64,000 nt of DNA, from the sequence record PZ179883.1, one strand, 5' to 3'. Positions 37,054-40,641 of this stretch are shown here, in pieces; the stretch's first letter is position 1; every line of letters begins with the position of its first letter. The position numbers and the translations under genes are program-made. The notes below the pieces were generated by a model, which saw only the letters and a list, made by a program, of their open reading frames with translations, was not told the origin of the DNA and made no database searches. The stretch is from a phage.

Positions 37054-37617
37054 TTATTTACCTAGTTTACTTATTATAGCTTCTGCAGCAGCTTTTAGCT
37101 TAGATGCAGTGTTAATACGATTTTTAATTTCAGTATACGCATCGCCAAGAACATCAAGGCTATCAGAATAAACACTTACACTATTGCGTTCGCTATTTGA
37201 AATAGAACCTTTAGTTTTGCGGTCAAAATCGGTGTACACGTCTTGAAGATCGCGGGCTGCCTTCTTTGCATCATCCAATGCATCAAGAGCTTTATTCAAA
37301 GCATTAACGTATTTTTTAGTGTCGAACATATTCTTAGAAATTTTAACAGGTGCGCGTTCAGGAGTAGCTAACACAGATTTAGGAACCTGAGCGCCAGATG
37401 CCAATTTCTTAGAAATTTTGAAAAATGCTTTATTGAATTTATTTTCTTGACTCATTGTAAAAGAACTATTATCGATGTTGTACATTTCAATAGCTTTAGC
37501 TTTCCACTTAAGAAAATCGCCGCGGTCTTTTGGGTCCAATTGGAAGAATACTTTAGTAAGATCTGCTTCAGATGGTAATTTTGCTGCTTCGGTTAAAAAT
37601 TCGGCATAGGTTTTCAT
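37054..37617 (-). CDS. internal-protein-like gene with capsid targeting sequence (187 aa)
   Basis: N-terminus MKTYAEFLTE; Ala/Lys-rich body; terminator hairpin after stop. Confidence 0.6.
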   Translation of the reverse strand: MKTYAEFLTEAAKLPSEADLTKVFFQLDPKDRGDFLKWKAKAIEMYNIDNSSFTMSQENKFNKAFFKISKKLASGAQVPKSVLATPERAPVKISKNMFDTKKYVNALNKALDALDDAKKAARDLQDVYTDFDRKTKGSISNSERNSVSVYSDSLDVLGDAYTEIKNRINTASKLKAAAEAIISKLGK

Positions 37618-37706
37618 TTAAAATCCTTGAAATAATTTATCGGTTGGTTATTAATTATTTATTACTTTGTTACTATCCGTAACAGCGTTATCCGAGTGAT
37701 TCAAAC

Positions 37707-37735
37707 TAAAAAGCCCCAACCTTTCGGTCGGGGCT
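37707..37735 (-). terminator. intrinsic terminator, copy 1 of a 31-nt identical element
   Basis: Minus-strand GCCCCGACC-GAAA-GGUUGGGGC followed by UUUUUAG; identical to 38262-38291. Confidence 0.7.
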
Positions 37736-37742
37736 AAGAATG

Positions 37743-38216
37743 TCATTTGATTTGTTTAGCAGACCAAATGCGGTCTTTAATAATTTTTTGGATGTCTTCA
37801 ACATACTCAAGAGAGTGAACATGTGGATTATCTTTGAAACTATAAGCACGGGCTAACTTTTGGCCTTCGGTTTTGATTACTAAAAGCTCTTTAAGGATAG
37901 CTTCATATTTAGCGATAATTCCTTTAACGATATTTTTTTCTTGTGCCGCTTTAGGATCTGCTTTAGGAGCAGGTTTACCCGAAGCCTTTGCAAAAGCAGC
38001 GCCAGTAGCAACTAAACTTTTCCAGGCCATACTAACTGCATTTCCCGTAAATCCTTCCGCTTTCATGTCGCGTGCAAACTGGAATCGCGATTCATCAGAA
38101 GCATCTTTATAGGAATATTTACCCGCGGCAATGGCAGCTTTTGCAACAGCTTGAATTTCGGTGCTAGATGCTTCATTTAACACCGCTTCATTTAAAAATT
38201 GAGTATATGATTTCAT
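37743..38216 (-). CDS. internal-protein-like gene with capsid targeting sequence (157 aa)
   Basis: ATG 38214-38216 with AGGAAA RBS gives MKSYTQFLNEAVLNEAS; track N-terminal extension overlaps the terminator. Confidence 0.6.
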   Translation of the reverse strand: MKSYTQFLNEAVLNEASSTEIQAVAKAAIAAGKYSYKDASDESRFQFARDMKAEGFTGNAVSMAWKSLVATGAAFAKASGKPAPKADPKAAQEKNIVKGIIAKYEAILKELLVIKTEGQKLARAYSFKDNPHVHSLEYVEDIQKIIKDRIWSAKQIK

Positions 38217-38253
38217 CTTATTTCCTGTTTTAATTTGTAGATTTAATATACTA

Positions 38254-38261
38254 ATATTTAT
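38254..38261 (-). promoter_or_regulatory. late promoter box TATAAATA upstream of internal-protein-like gene
   Basis: Minus-strand TATAAATA abutting terminator 38262-38291 and 38 nt upstream of ATG 38216. Confidence 0.5.
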
Positions 38262-38291
38262 ACCAAAAAGCCCCAACCTTTCGGTCGGGGC
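38262..38291 (-). terminator. intrinsic terminator, copy 2 of the 31-nt element
   Basis: Same hairpin plus U tract, at the downstream edge of the tRNA/small RNA region. Confidence 0.7.
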
Positions 38292-38342
38292 TAAGCCTTG
38301 CGGCAACCTTGTCGGGGTTCCACCTGCTAAGGCAAGTGTTTG

Positions 38343-38434
38343 TACGAAACGCCGGGATTCGAACCCGGTTATTAAGTAGTTGACGCTACTCAATATTTTT
38401 AAAAGGCCATATCTCGACCATATCCGAACGTTCC
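38343..38434 (-). ncRNA. tRNA-like small RNA candidate (perfect T-arm, 7 bp acceptor-like helix, non-canonical core)
   Basis: CCGGG-TTCGAAT-CCCGG T-arm at 38351-38367; 38344-38350 pairs with 38428-38434 (one G-U); no canonical anticodon arm; lies between CDS 38600-38950 and a terminator. Confidence 0.35.
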
Positions 38435-38599
38435 GTCAAAAACGCTACTCGGCTTACGGCAAAGATATTTCCTCGAATCGATAATTCGGTGCGCCGTTTC
38501 TGCTGTGATAGTAAAGAGCCAGAACACAGTAAAACTGTGGGAGGAAACTATACTCCAGGGAACATCAGTCCGACGACTTACCGGTAGCGACCCGGTTTC

Positions 38600-38950
38600 T
38601 TAATATTCTTTTAAAGAATCAATATATTCACGGCGTTTACGCCACAAATCAATTGCTTCATACGCGGATTCAGCATTTCGAATTAGCCGGCATTTATGTA
38701 AAGACTTATGATTTTGATATTGTGTAGATAACGGAATTGTATCTAAAAGGTCTTTACGATCAAAATATTCGTAACCATCTAAACCAAATGAACGATTTTT
38801 GAGAAATTGCCAATGACCATATTCGTTTTCGACATAAACATAATCTGCATGCTGATAAAGCAAATTAATTACACGTTCAGAAATAACAGTATCATTATGA
38901 TTAAAATAGAATGTTAAATCATGAACTACTAAATAAACATTACCTTTCAT
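38600..38950 (-). CDS. hypothetical protein (116 aa) embedded in tRNA/small RNA region
   Basis: ATG 38948-38950 with GAGGAAAA RBS, 17 nt downstream of tRNA-Arg. Confidence 0.55.
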   Translation of the reverse strand: MKGNVYLVVHDLTFYFNHNDTVISERVINLLYQHADYVYVENEYGHWQFLKNRSFGLDGYEYFDRKDLLDTIPLSTQYQNHKSLHKCRLIRNAESAYEAIDLWRKRREYIDSLKEY

Positions 38951-38966: not shown

Positions 38967-39042
38967 TGGTCGAGGCAGTAGGGATCGAACCTACGACCTA
39001 GGACTTAGAAGGTCCTTGCTCTTCCTTCTGAGCTATGCCCCG
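38967..39042 (-). tRNA. tRNA-Arg (anticodon TCT), CCA encoded
   Basis: Manual fold: 7 bp acceptor, T-loop TTCGATC, anticodon loop CTTCTAA. Confidence 0.85.
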
Positions 39043-39046
39043 TAAT

Positions 39047-39128
39047 TGGGGTGACCGATGGGAGTCGAACCCATGACTACGAGAATCACAATCACAATCT
39101 CGAGTTCTACCAACTGAACTACGGCCAC
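39047..39128 (-). tRNA. tRNA-His-like (GTG) with 13-nt anticodon loop; possible pseudo-tRNA
   Basis: Acceptor, D-arm, T-arm and discriminator C resemble tRNA-His; anticodon stem CGAGA/TCTCG encloses TTGTGATTGTGAT. Confidence 0.55.
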
Positions 39129-39242
39129 ATTAATACCTACTCCAACAATCAAGATGTCTTCACACGAAATTAAGAGAAGAGTGATCAGTTCAACCCCTAT
39201 AATCGCGTCAAGTAGATATTAATGTGACAGTTGTCACAAATT

Positions 39243-39317
39243 TGGCGGACGTGATAGGATTCGAACCTATAACCAATCGCTTAACAGGCGATCGCTCTGC
39301 CATTGAGCTACACATCC
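39243..39317 (-). tRNA. tRNA-Asn (anticodon GTT), CCA encoded
   Basis: Manual fold: acceptor GGATGTG/CACGTCC, anticodon loop CTGTTAA, T-loop TTCGAAT. Confidence 0.85.
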
Positions 39318-39321
39318 AAAT

Positions 39322-39408
39322 TGGTGGGGAGTGGTGGAGTCGAACCACCCGAGTCGCAATGACAATGGATTTACAGTCCACACCGCTACCTCTACGGGAT
39401 AACTCCCC
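39322..39408 (-). tRNA. tRNA-Tyr (anticodon GTA), long variable arm, CCA encoded
   Basis: Manual fold: anticodon loop CTGTAAA, T-arm GGTGG-TTCGACT-CCACC. Confidence 0.8.
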
Positions 39409-39417
39409 AAATTAATT

Positions 39418-39492
39418 TGGTGGCCCTGGGTGGAATTGAACCACCATCTGGCGATTATGAGTCGCTTGCTTGAACCTTCCAGCTACAGGGCC
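39418..39492 (-). tRNA. tRNA with CAT anticodon (Ile2-type as in T4, or Met)
   Basis: Manual fold: acceptor GGCCCTG/CAGGGCC, anticodon loop CTCATAA. Confidence 0.75.
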
Positions 39493-39493
39493 T

Positions 39494-39569
39494 TGGTGCT
39501 GATTGACGGAATCGAACCGCCGACCTTCTCATTACAAGTGAGTTGCTCTACCTACTGAGCTAAATCAGC
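39494..39569 (-). tRNA. tRNA-Thr (anticodon TGT), CCA encoded
   Basis: Manual fold: acceptor GCTGATT/AATCAGC, anticodon loop CTTGTAA. Confidence 0.85.
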
Positions 39570-39574
39570 AAAAC

Positions 39575-39664
39575 TGGCGGAGGCGATAGGATTTGAACCT
39601 ATGAGTCGCCGGAGCGACTGCCGGTTTTCAAGACCGGTGCATTAAACCACTCTGCCACGCCTCC
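39575..39664 (-). tRNA. tRNA-Ser (anticodon TGA), long variable arm, CCA encoded
   Basis: Manual fold: anticodon arm CCGGT-CTTGAAA-ACCGG, T-loop TTCAAAT. Confidence 0.85.
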
Positions 39665-39666
39665 AG

Positions 39667-39740
39667 TCTCCGTGGCAGGATTTGAACCTACGACATTCTG
39701 CTCCCAAAGCAGACGCTCTACCAAACTGAGCTACACGGAG
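39667..39740 (-). tRNA. tRNA-Pro (anticodon TGG), CCA not encoded
   Basis: Manual fold: acceptor CTCCGTG/CACGGAG, anticodon loop TTTGGGA. Confidence 0.85.
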
Positions 39741-39750
39741 TAAATTAAAT

Positions 39751-39824
<74 letters not shown>

Positions 39825-39829
39825 AAATT

Positions 39830-39916
39830 TGGTGCGAGAAGTGGGACTCGAACCCACAAGGAAATCATTCCGCAGCATTTTAAGTGCTGTGCCTTTACCA
39901 ATTTGACCATTCTCGC
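39830..39916 (-). tRNA. tRNA-Leu (anticodon TAA), long variable arm, CCA encoded
   Basis: Manual fold: acceptor GCGAGAA/TTCTCGC, anticodon loop CTTAAAA. Confidence 0.85.
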
Positions 39917-39922
39917 TCTATA

Positions 39923-40531
39923 TTATTTATTACGTGAAAAAGATTGTTCTATCAATTCTGGACACTTTCGTTCTATCCATTTTCTAGCTTTTTGTGGGCT
40001 TATACCTATTATTTTAGCAGCTTTACTAACCCATCCAAATTTAGAATAATCGATTTTAACTAATTCTTCGTAAATTTCATCAGTTAAAATCTTTTCATTA
40101 ATATTTACCAGTAAATGATATAATTTATTATCATTAGCAATTTTAATGAATCTTTTATAGTTTCCGCCTTTACTTAAACCTAATGAAGTAATTGCAGATG
40201 ATATAGTAGCCGAATTTAATAATGCGTTTAAAATTTCTTCATCACTAACATTATAACGCTTTTTATTATTTTTAATATTTTTACCAGCAAAAGTATCAGT
40301 TTGCGAATGGCAATTTGGACATAATAATCTTAAATTTGATTTAAGATGATTTTTGTTATTTCCATCAATATGGTCTAATTGCAGAACAATATGCTTATTT
40401 TGCCATTTTGAAATTTTACAAATTGCACACTCATATGGAAAAATATTTTCTTTTATTATTTTGTCTTTCAGCTTTCCTGTACTAAAATTTGGATGTTTTC
40501 CTTCAAAAATTTCAGCTAATTTAGTATCCAT
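39923..40531 (-). CDS. HNH homing endonuclease-like protein
   Basis: HNH motif LQLDHIDGNNKNH...LLCPNCHSQTD; 202 aa from ATG 40529-40531 (track start 40555 is TTG); stop abuts tRNA-Leu. Confidence 0.7.
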   Translation of the reverse strand: MDTKLAEIFEGKHPNFSTGKLKDKIIKENIFPYECAICKISKWQNKHIVLQLDHIDGNNKNHLKSNLRLLCPNCHSQTDTFAGKNIKNNKKRYNVSDEEILNALLNSATISSAITSLGLSKGGNYKRFIKIANDNKLYHLLVNINEKILTDEIYEELVKIDYSKFGWVSKAAKIIGISPQKARKWIERKCPELIEQSFSRNK

Positions 40532-40641
40532 AATATAATTCCCAATTATTAACAAAGGCTCTCTAACAAGAACCCTTGATGATAGAGGGTATTAATCAGT
40601 GCGATATGAGTTAATAATAACAAATAATTCTTAAAGCATAT

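What the first reader, a model, noticed from the sequence alone, without database searches (positions are those of the whole stretch)
38297..38599. About 300 nt non-coding stretch downstream of the tRNAs containing a tRNA-like element
No ORF of 60 aa or more is present. 38351-38367 is a perfect GC-rich T-arm with TTCGAAT loop, and 38344-38350 can pair with 38428-38434 like an acceptor stem, but the interior lacks a canonical anticodon arm. This could be the counterpart of the T4 stable small RNAs (rnaC/rnaD, species 1 and 2), a tRNA-derived regulatory RNA, or a degenerate tRNA.
Basis: partly seen in the sequence, partly recalled or inferred. Interest (0 to 1): 0.5.

Follow-up and report, generated by a model that had tools for sequence, protein, structure and literature searches.

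The report
Phage T4 stable RNAs rnaC/rnaD
This stretch holds the well-known but still function-less "species I and II" stable RNAs (rnaC and rnaD) found at the end of the tRNA operon of T4-like phages; rnaC is a tRNA-shaped RNA that cannot decode.

Summary
The window is a T4-like phage (Tequatrovirus; 100% identical here to phage HP3/YUEEL01). The minus strand of 38297-38599 is the direct ortholog of T4 rnaD (species II RNA, window 38603-38488) and rnaC (species I RNA, 38481-38343). A conserved 47-nt trailer and the operon terminator (38292-38269) follow.

The T arm is real (38352-38368, 1 nt off). In 24 distinct homologs the 3' strand pairs instead with the 5' end of rnaC (38480-38474), with a compensatory A-U/G-C switch.

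rnaC folds as an acceptor-like helix plus a canonical T arm plus two arms. The 6-nt loops of those arms (UUGACG/CGUCAA) are exactly complementary and co-vary in one clade, which points to a kissing loop. rnaD also has a structure supported by covariation, and it occurs alone in an unrelated phage subfamily.

Function remains unknown. The best inference is a non-decoding tRNA mimic that is matured by tRNA-processing enzymes. No Rfam family covers either RNA.

The parts
38488..38603 (-). rnaD (species II RNA) ortholog, bounds transferred from the T4 annotation
   Evidence: Alignment to T4 L001 3054-3172. The 5' ~45 nt and 3' ~30 nt are near-identical and the middle has diverged. A consensus structure on 9 homologs has 97.7% of cells paired, against 31-49% when partners are slid.
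38580..38596 (-). rnaD hairpin A: ACCGG-GUCGCUA-CCGGU
   Evidence: The stem co-varies (CCGG/CCGG, CAGG/CCUG, UCGG/CCGA) across Tevenvirinae and Vequintavirinae, while the loop GUCGCU(A/C) is conserved.
38565..38577 (-). rnaD 5' strand of the long-range stem (GUCGUCG, 38577-38571), then the invariant internal-loop strand GACUGA (38570-38565)
   Evidence: Pairs with CGGCGCAC at 38496-38489. The opposite loop strand is GAAA at 38500-38497. The adjacent pair (A4 columns 42-112) occurs as U-A, A-U and G-C.
38489..38500 (-). rnaD 3' strand of the long-range stem (CGGCGCAC) plus the invariant GAAA loop strand
38482..38487 (-). 6-nt spacer GAAUUA between rnaD and rnaC (presumed processing site)
   Evidence: Corresponds to AAAUUA between the two T4 features. 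RAAUUA precedes rnaC in most T4-type and Karamvirus homologs. That it is a cleavage site is inferred.
38343..38481 (-). rnaC (species I RNA) ortholog, 139 nt
   Evidence: 138/139 identical to T4 rnaC. Scores 157 bits, E=4e-40, with model R1. The minimum-free-energy fold equals the comparative model, z=-4.56.
38474..38480 (-). rnaC P1 5' strand CGAUUCG (acceptor-like helix)
   Evidence: Pairs with 38351-38345. The third pair is A-U in 11 and G-C in 13 of 24 homologs. Two central U.U mismatches are invariant.
38404..38473 (-). rnaC long arm P2 (closing pairs AGG/CCU, internal loops, apical hairpin)
   Evidence: 15 of its 23 pairs show changes on both sides across homologs.
38434..38439 (-). P2 apical loop UUGACG (kissing loop, partner 1)
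   Evidence: Exactly complementary to 38385-38380. It is UUGGCG in the Klebsiella-phage clade, where the partner is CGCCAA. All 24 of 24 sequences pair.
38370..38395 (-). rnaC arm P3 (10 bp) with loop CGUCAA at 38385-38380 (kissing loop, partner 2)
   Evidence: 9 of 10 stem pairs show changes on both sides. Loop complementarity as described for partner 1.
38352..38368 (-). rnaC T arm CCGGG-UUCGAAU-CCCGG
   Evidence: The middle pair is G-C in 10 and U-A in 12 of 24 homologs.
38345..38351 (-). rnaC P1 3' strand CGUUUCG, followed by U38344 and A38343 (the annotated 3' end)
   Evidence: Downstream the sequence reads ACAA here and CCAA in the Klebsiella-phage clade.
38296..38342 (-). Conserved 47-nt trailer between rnaC and the terminator
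   Evidence: 45/47 identical to T4. In Dhakavirus JS10/VR5 the same trailer directly follows rnaD, with no rnaC. Trailer plus terminator folds with z=-4.0. Part of it resembles a degenerate copy of the terminator (read directly from the sequence).
38264..38295 (-). Intrinsic terminator of the tRNA/rnaD/rnaC operon (stem 38292-38269, then a U tract)
   Evidence: PMC2330249 states that T4 tRNA-cluster transcription terminates after the species I gene.

Best explanation
SHOWN. The minus strand of 38264-38603 is the 3' end of the phage tRNA operon. It carries, in order, the orthologs of T4 rnaD (species II RNA) and rnaC (species I RNA), a conserved trailer and the intrinsic terminator.

rnaC adopts a four-way, tRNA-like layout:
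- a 7-bp acceptor-like helix formed by its own 5' and 3' ends, with two invariant central U.U mismatches;
- a canonical 5-bp T arm with a UUCGAAU loop, adjacent to that helix in the sequence as in tRNA;
- two arms (P2, about 23 bp with internal loops, and P3, 10 bp) in place of the D and anticodon arms.
The 6-nt loops of P2 and P3, UUGACG and CGUCAA, are perfectly complementary.

rnaD is a separate RNA. It has a 5' hairpin and a long irregular helix that carries an invariant GACUGA/GAAA internal loop and a hypervariable tip.

INFERRED.
- Both RNAs are cut out of the polycistronic tRNA precursor by the host tRNA-processing machinery: RNase P at the acceptor/T-arm minihelix of rnaC, and an endonuclease at the AU-rich spacer.
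- They accumulate because of these compact folds.
- The loop-loop kiss locks P2 back onto P3. By my own count, P3 + kiss + the upper part of P2 come to about 24 stacked layers and the lower part of P2 to about 20, which would fit such a fold-back.
- rnaC has no anticodon loop, so it cannot decode. It most likely acts in trans as a tRNA mimic that engages a host or phage factor recognising the acceptor/T-arm half of tRNA, as a decoy or an adaptor.
- The invariant internal loop of rnaD is most likely a protein-binding site.

Identity and architecture are near-certain. My estimate for the trans-acting tRNA-mimic function is about 0.35.
For: Identity:
- Base-for-base alignment with the annotated T4 rnaD/rnaC features.
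- About 800 Straboviridae records match, and some annotate rnaC/rnaD at the site.

rnaC structure:
- RNAalifold on 14 homologs recovers the outer acceptor, P2, P3 and T arm, with 20 of 37 pairs compensatory.
- On 24 distinct homologs from at least 7 genera, 96.1% of cells are paired and 27 of 49 pairs change on both sides. Slid controls give 34-48% paired, and 0 of 500 shuffles reach the observed values.
- The single-sequence minimum-free-energy fold equals this model at -50.2 kcal/mol, z=-4.56.

Kissing loop:
- All 6 positions are complementary in 24 of 24 sequences. A46-U106 (A5 alignment columns) becomes G-C in the five Klebsiella-clade sequences.
- The homologs were collected by searches that did not specify the loops.

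Modularity:
- rnaC stands alone inside tRNA clusters in PG7, Ursula and Melville.
- rnaD plus trailer occurs without rnaC in JS10/VR5.
- rnaD occurs alone beside tRNA-Met in Vequintavirinae.

rnaD structure.

Expression in T4:
- Detected by northern blot and RNA-seq and classed as late RNAs (PMC9697503).
- Co-transcribed with the tRNAs as one ~1.75 kb precursor that terminates after species I (PMC2330249).

Hint of function: a convergent SNP in rnaD arose in all lines of T4-like phage BW1 evolved on host ECOR34 (PMC12685909).
Against: - No experiment here shows transcript ends, RNase P cleavage, CCA addition or a binding partner.
- The function of both RNAs is stated to be unknown in every paper found.
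- The kiss rests on one compensatory event in one clade plus invariance elsewhere. It could instead be an intermolecular contact (dimer), or each loop could contact a third partner.
- rnaD alone is not thermodynamically unusual (z=-0.19).
- From my own recollection, not checked here: T4 deletions that remove the tRNA region are viable on laboratory hosts, so any function is conditional.
Confidence: 0.75

Rival explanations
1. The two RNAs are functionless by-products. On this view they are structured spacers whose only role is in cis: to direct RNase P/RNase E processing and to shield the 3' end of the tRNA operon transcript. Their stability would then be a side-effect of their folds.
For: - They sit at the 3' end of the operon, just before the terminator.
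- The 5' end of rnaC defines the 3' side of rnaD.
- No function has been reported in decades.
- The tRNA region is dispensable on laboratory hosts (my own recollection, not checked).
Against: - Loop sequences, the GG dinucleotide (38407-38408), the tandem U.U mismatches and the rnaD internal loop are invariant across genera, while neighbouring stems drift and co-vary. A spacer would not need this.
- rnaC also occurs in the middle of tRNA clusters (PG7, Melville), where no 3'-end protection is needed.
- rnaD has moved alone into an unrelated phage subfamily.
- A convergent SNP in rnaD arose under host adaptation.
Confidence: 0.15
2. The element is a degenerate or unusual tRNA. It would be the 93-nt inner cloverleaf at 38344-38436, with an 8-bp acceptor and a long variable arm, as the reader proposed and as some genome annotations call it.
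For: - An 8-bp inner pairing and a perfect T arm are present.
- ARAGORN calls the homologous stretch tRNA-Met in PG7 and tRNA-Phe in L005. GenBank records annotate 'tRNA-Met' there in PG7, SonariX and kv_tblp2.
- There is a weak tRNA-Sec match at 17 bits.
Against: - The 'anticodon' assigned differs between homologs (CAT versus GAA), and none is called in this window or in T4.
- The Rfam tRNA model does not reach threshold.
- The inner stem has no compensatory change and is broken at one pair in 7 of 14 homologs, whereas the outer stem shows an A-U/G-C switch.
- Its 5' strand is the 3' half of a co-varying hairpin.
- It is about 13 kcal/mol less stable than the outer model.
- The annotated mature T4 RNA is 139 nt, not 93.
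Confidence: 0.05
3. The region is merely the 3' UTR of the upstream 116-aa gene, or it hides a small protein gene.
For: - The stop codon of ORF116 (38602-38600) abuts rnaD.
- Short ORFs of 32-42 aa can be drawn in the region.
Against: - ORF116 is absent from T4, where the same RNAs directly follow tRNA-Arg.
- Substitutions preserve base pairs rather than codons, and homolog lengths differ by 1-2 nt (138-141 nt).
- The middle of rnaD is hypervariable but stays paired.
Confidence: 0.03

Closest known systems
Bacteriophage T4 rnaC (species I RNA) and rnaD (species II RNA)
   Same: Orthologous sequence, order, strand, position at the end of the tRNA operon, and terminator. rnaC is 138/139 identical to T4.
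   Different: Here a 116-aa ORF (phrog_3355) lies between tRNA-Arg and rnaD. The middle third of rnaD differs from T4 but keeps its pairing. The tRNA set of the cluster is not T4's (Met, Tyr, Asn and a His-like gene are extra; Gln and Ile are absent), which fits PMC2330249's description of phage T2L as carrying four extra tRNA genes and two unknown ORFs.
Transfer RNA (Rfam RF00005)
   Same: A 7-bp terminal helix immediately followed by a canonical 5-bp T arm with a UUCGAAU loop, a four-way junction, and location inside tRNA gene clusters.
   Different: No D arm, no 7-nt anticodon loop and no consistent anticodon. There are two tandem U.U mismatches in the acceptor-like helix. The RNA is 139 nt long. 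It falls below the tRNA model threshold and is not called by ARAGORN in this window.
tRNA-like domains of non-decoding RNAs (the tmRNA tRNA-like domain, bacterial YrlA Y-RNA-like RNAs, MALAT1 mascRNA)
   Same: The concept is the same: an acceptor/T-arm module that recruits tRNA-processing enzymes, attached to a non-tRNA body. This comparison rests on general knowledge of those families.
   Different: No sequence or model match. ARAGORN finds no tmRNA. The YrlA and mascRNA models hit only the neighbouring true tRNAs, at chance level. There is no tag reading frame and no Ro/Rsr context.

Membership tests
T4 rnaC (species I RNA) | Sequence homology to the annotated T4 feature (NC_000866 70908-71046) | tested here: met
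   138/139 identical, with full-length alignment.
T4 rnaC (species I RNA) | Position: last RNA gene of the tRNA operon, after rnaD and before the terminator | tested here: met
T4 rnaC (species I RNA) | Accumulates as a discrete stable RNA of about 140 nt in infected cells | not testable with these tools
   Shown for T4 itself by northern blot (PMC9697503). No expression data exist for this phage.
T4 rnaD (species II RNA) | Sequence homology to the annotated T4 feature (NC_000866 71053-71171) | tested here: met
   The 5' ~45 nt and 3' ~30 nt are near-identical and the central ~40 nt have diverged.
T4 rnaD (species II RNA) | Lies directly downstream of a tRNA gene (tRNA-Arg in T4) | tested here: not met
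   Here a 351-nt ORF (38600-38950) separates tRNA-Arg from rnaD. The order is otherwise preserved. This is a context difference, not a structural one.
tRNA (RF00005) | Scores at or above the family threshold (29 bits), or is called by a tRNA finder | tested here: not met
   No tRNA hit in 38297-38603. Only tRNA-Sec at 17 bits, E=3.
tRNA (RF00005) | Acceptor stem followed directly by a T arm with a T-loop consensus | tested here: met
   P1 (38480-38474 with 38351-38345) plus the T arm at 38352-38368, supported by covariation.
tRNA (RF00005) | D arm, and an anticodon arm with a 7-nt loop and a conserved anticodon | tested here: not met
   Both internal arms have 6-nt loops that pair with each other. 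The anticodons ARAGORN assigns to homologs disagree (CAT versus GAA).
tmRNA | A tRNA-like domain plus a tag-peptide reading frame and pseudoknots | tested here: not met
   ARAGORN reports no tmRNA in the window. At 139 nt the RNA is too short, and no reading frame is conserved.
YrlA / Y RNA-like (RF02553) | A match to the family model, with a Ro-binding stem plus a tRNA-like module | tested here: not met
   The only YrlA hit (17.7 bits against a gathering score of 69) falls on the true tRNAs at 39017-39079, not on rnaC.

The most novel reading that the evidence does not exclude
rnaC is a purpose-built tRNA decoy. It keeps the acceptor/T-arm face that tRNA-processing, tRNA-modifying or tRNA-attacking proteins recognise. 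The decoding half is replaced by two arms clamped together by a conserved kissing loop. It would act in trans, late in infection, to titrate or redirect a host factor, for example an anti-phage effector that targets the tRNA acceptor end. rnaD would be an independent, horizontally mobile protein-binding RNA that works on a different partner. I found no description of the kissing-loop architecture or of the outer-acceptor register in the searchable literature, so they may be new.
Probability: 0.2. Interest if true: 0.65.

Novelty: already known. Interest (0 to 1): 0.3.

Why it matters
rnaC and rnaD have been known for decades, and every paper found here still calls their function unknown.

Re-finding them in this window is not news. 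The comparative analysis does give concrete handles for experiments:
- a structure supported by covariation, with a testable kissing loop and a defined acceptor register;
- evidence that rnaC, rnaD and the trailer are three independently mobile modules;
- evidence that rnaD crosses phage subfamilies.

It also flags a recurrent annotation error: rnaC homologs are labelled as 95-nt tRNA-Met or tRNA-Phe.

Neither RNA matches any Rfam family in these searches, so annotation pipelines leave the stretch blank, call spurious 'hypothetical proteins' across it, or label it a tRNA.

Tried and rejected
1. Rfam at gathering and at E<=10. No family covers the region. The tRNA-Sec hit is at chance level.
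2. It was counted on the alignment and rejected as the conserved pairing (energies).
3. A pattern scan of IMG/VR for the 5' motif plus T loop and for the two loops plus T loop. Most of the ~190 loci were chance matches. BLAST and covariance-model screening kept only 13 true rnaC loci, all Straboviridae-like.
4. A metagenome scan. It added only two more members of the Klebsiella-phage clade.
5. A scan of bacterial and archaeal genomes. This is therefore not a proof of absence.
6. 5,426 complete E. coli genomes: no rnaC or rnaD homolog.
7. rnaD and the trailer as one RNA interrupted by rnaC. JS10/VR5 suggested this. It was not pursued to a conclusion, because minimum-free-energy folds were inconsistent between phages and Vequintavirinae carry rnaD without the trailer.
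8. A hammerhead-like reading of CUGAUG...GAAAC in rnaD. Rejected by eye: by my recollection of the hammerhead core, the positions corresponding to its essential G8/A9 vary between homologs, and no ribozyme model matches.
9. A tmRNA-like tag frame ahead of the UAA UAA before the T arm. It is not conserved in Ursula-type homologs.
10. The older primary literature on species I/II. It is not held in the paper library. Statements about RNA length and dispensability are my own recollection.

Full report
**What the window is.**
The 391 nt around the finding are 100% identical to Escherichia phages HP3, YUEEL01 and others. They match about 800 Straboviridae records. ARAGORN and Rfam find ten tRNA genes on the minus strand at 38967-39916, just upstream of the finding in the direction of transcription. 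The window is therefore a T4-like phage, and the finding lies at the downstream end of its tRNA cluster.

**Checking the observation.**
- The acceptor-like pairing is real.
- No tRNA is called here by ARAGORN or by the Rfam tRNA model. The only match is a chance-level tRNA-Sec hit of 17 bits, E=3.
- The statement 'no ORF of 60 aa or more' is not literally true. A 216-aa TTG-started ORF (37743-38393, minus strand) reaches into the region. It is only the next gene (ATG at 38216) read backwards through its own TATAAATA late-promoter motif (38262-38255) and the terminator. The region is effectively non-coding.

**What it is.**
The T4 reference genome annotates two misc_RNA features right after tRNA-Arg: rnaD ('species 2 RNA', 71053-71171) and rnaC ('species 1 RNA', 70908-71046). 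The minus strand of the finding aligns with them end to end. Transferring the T4 bounds gives:
- rnaD = 38603-38488;
- a 6-nt spacer GAAUUA = 38487-38482;
- rnaC = 38481-38343.

rnaC is 138/139 identical to T4. rnaD is near-identical in its first ~45 and last ~30 nt and has diverged in the middle. After rnaC comes a 47-nt trailer (38342-38296) that is 45/47 identical to T4. Then comes a strong intrinsic terminator, with its stem at 38292-38269 followed by a U tract. Some records annotate rnaC/rnaD at this site (RB7, RB27, T4 isolates). Most annotate nothing, or spurious hypothetical proteins.

**What is known.**
- A T4 omics study detected both RNAs, validated by northern blot, classed them as late RNAs and called their function unknown (PMC9697503).
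- A review says the same about function (PMC3014915).
- The SegB paper summarises earlier work: transcription runs through the whole tRNA cluster and terminates after the species I gene, giving a ~1.75 kb precursor of the tRNAs and of species I and II (PMC2330249).
- In a T4-like phage (BW1) evolved on host ECOR34, the only mutation shared by all lines was a SNP in rnaD (PMC12685909).
- The library did not hold the older primary papers.

**Structure of rnaC.**
I collected homologs by BLAST against phage genomes and by motif scans of viral and metagenomic contigs. I screened them with BLAST and a covariance model. The result is 24 distinct sequences from:
- Tequatrovirus, Mosigvirus, Gaprivervirus, Karamvirus, Kanagawavirus and Gelderlandvirus;
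- Klebsiella phages of the Marfa type;
- Edwardsiella phage PEi20 and Citrobacter phage Ursula.

RNAalifold recovers a four-way junction:
- P1, formed by the 5' end (CGRUUCG) and the 3' end (CGUUYCG);
- a long arm, P2;
- a 10-bp arm, P3;
- the T arm.

On the 24 sequences, 96.1% of cells are standard pairs and 27 of 49 pairs change on both sides. Sliding the partners gives 34-48% paired, and 0 of 500 shuffles reach the observed values. The third P1 pair is A-U in the T4 type and G-C elsewhere. Two central U.U mismatches are invariant.

The single-sequence minimum-free-energy fold of the window's rnaC is this same structure (-50.2 kcal/mol, z=-4.56).

Counted as a helix, it shows no compensatory change and is broken at one pair in 7 of 14 sequences. 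Forcing it costs about 13 kcal/mol. The same inner pairing explains why ARAGORN, and several GenBank records, call homologs a 95-nt 'tRNA-Met' or 'tRNA-Phe'. The anticodons assigned are inconsistent with each other.

**A kissing loop.**
The apical loop of P2 is UUGACG (38439-38434). The loop of P3 is CGUCAA (38385-38380). They are exact complements, and the complementarity stops at the loop boundaries.
- All 24 sequences keep six pairs.
- The five Klebsiella-clade sequences have UUGGCG with CGCCAA, a compensatory change.
- The homologs were found by searches that did not specify the loops.

This amounts to one evolutionary event plus strict invariance, so the support is good but not decisive.

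By my own count, P3 (10 bp) + kiss (6 bp) + upper P2 (about 8 bp) is roughly as long as lower P2 (about 20 layers). That fits an intramolecular fold-back. A reciprocal dimer cannot be excluded.

Other invariant features:
- an unpaired GG near the junction (38408-38407);
- the 3' tail, which reads GU-ACAA in most homologs and GU-CCAA in the Klebsiella clade.

**Structure of rnaD, and modularity.**
Nine homologs give a 5' hairpin whose stem co-varies (CCGG/CCGG, CAGG/CCUG, UCGG/CCGA). They also give a long-range stem GUCGUCG/CGGCGCAC and an invariant internal loop GACUGA/GAAA. The adjacent pair is seen as U-A, A-U and G-C. Beyond that lies a further stem and a hypervariable tip. Overall 97.7% of cells are paired, against 31-49% when slid. 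rnaD alone is not unusually stable (z=-0.19).

The three pieces are independent modules:
- rnaC sits alone inside tRNA clusters in PG7, Ursula and Melville.
- Dhakavirus JS10 and VR5 have rnaD fused directly to the trailer, with no rnaC.
- Two Vequintavirinae (A5-4, LTH01), an unrelated subfamily, carry rnaD alone beside tRNA-Met.

Neither RNA has a homolog in 5,426 complete E. coli genomes.

**How it most likely works.**
Shown: the identity, the operon context, the folds and the modularity.

Inferred:
- Both RNAs are excised from the tRNA precursor by host tRNA-processing enzymes. The P1/T-arm minihelix of rnaC is the kind of substrate RNase P and 3' trimming enzymes recognise.
- rnaC has no anticodon loop, so it cannot decode.
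- Its conserved acceptor/T-arm face, with the rest clamped by the kiss, suggests a tRNA mimic acting in trans on a factor that reads that face.
- The invariant internal loop of rnaD looks like a protein-binding site.

I put about 0.35 on the trans-acting mimic idea. The main rival is that both RNAs are cis-acting processing or protection elements whose stability is incidental. The invariance of the loops, the occurrence of rnaC in mid-cluster, the horizontal spread of rnaD and the convergent SNP argue against that rival.

**Verdict.**
The structural details worked out here may be new: the outer acceptor register, the kissing loop, the rnaD fold and the modular distribution. No Rfam family covers either RNA. 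None of this changes the category.

Noticed in passing
window 39129-39242 (minus strand): The 114-nt spacer between tRNA-Asn and the tRNA-His-like gene folds unusually well (-32.7 kcal/mol, z=-4.36). Homologous leaders precede tRNA-His in PG7, L005, Ursula and Melville. RNAalifold gives a ~19-bp closing stem whose 3' strand runs into the first nucleotides of tRNA-His, with 9 of 35 pairs compensatory. It may be a further structured leader or stable RNA in the tRNA cluster.
   Followed up: partly
window 39047-39128 (minus strand): ARAGORN reports a tRNA with an undetermined anticodon. It is tRNA-His(GUG) carrying a 6-nt tandem duplication (UUGUGA) that enlarges the anticodon loop to 13 nt. About 195 related phage records match at 95-99%, and the ones listed are 6 nt shorter and annotate a normal tRNA-His. 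Only 3 records match at 99% or more. It is probably an inactivated or altered tRNA.
   Followed up: partly
window 38600-38950 (minus strand): A 116-aa ORF of unknown function (phrog_3355, no Pfam hit) lies between tRNA-Arg and rnaD, where T4 has nothing. Its stop codon lies within the transferred 5' end of rnaD.
   Followed up: partly
window 37054-38216 and terminators 37712-37735 / 38269-38292 (minus strand): Two adjacent paralogous genes (both phrog_2280, unknown function) are each preceded by the same 24-nt terminator stem-loop (AGCCCCGACCGAAAGGTTGGGGCT), which suggests a tandem duplication.
   Followed up: no
window 39923-40555 (minus strand): An HNH endonuclease gene (phrog_14736) sits immediately upstream of the tRNA cluster, with a TATAAATA motif at 40890-40883. 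In T4 a GIY-YIG homing endonuclease (segB) sits inside the cluster instead.
   Followed up: no
L202 397-526 (phage A5-4) and L203 497-607 (phage LTH01): rnaD homologs occur in Vequintavirinae, outside Straboviridae, next to tRNA-Met and without rnaC or the trailer. This points to horizontal transfer of this small RNA gene between phage subfamilies.
   Followed up: partly
L002 1546-1640 (PG7), L005 7816-7911, L337 274-368 (SonariX), Klebsiella phages kv_tblp2 and kv_tblp8: rnaC homologs are annotated, or called by ARAGORN, as over-long (95-96 nt) tRNA-Met or tRNA-Phe. The call rests on the inner pairing, which is not conserved, so this is a recurrent annotation error.
   Followed up: yes
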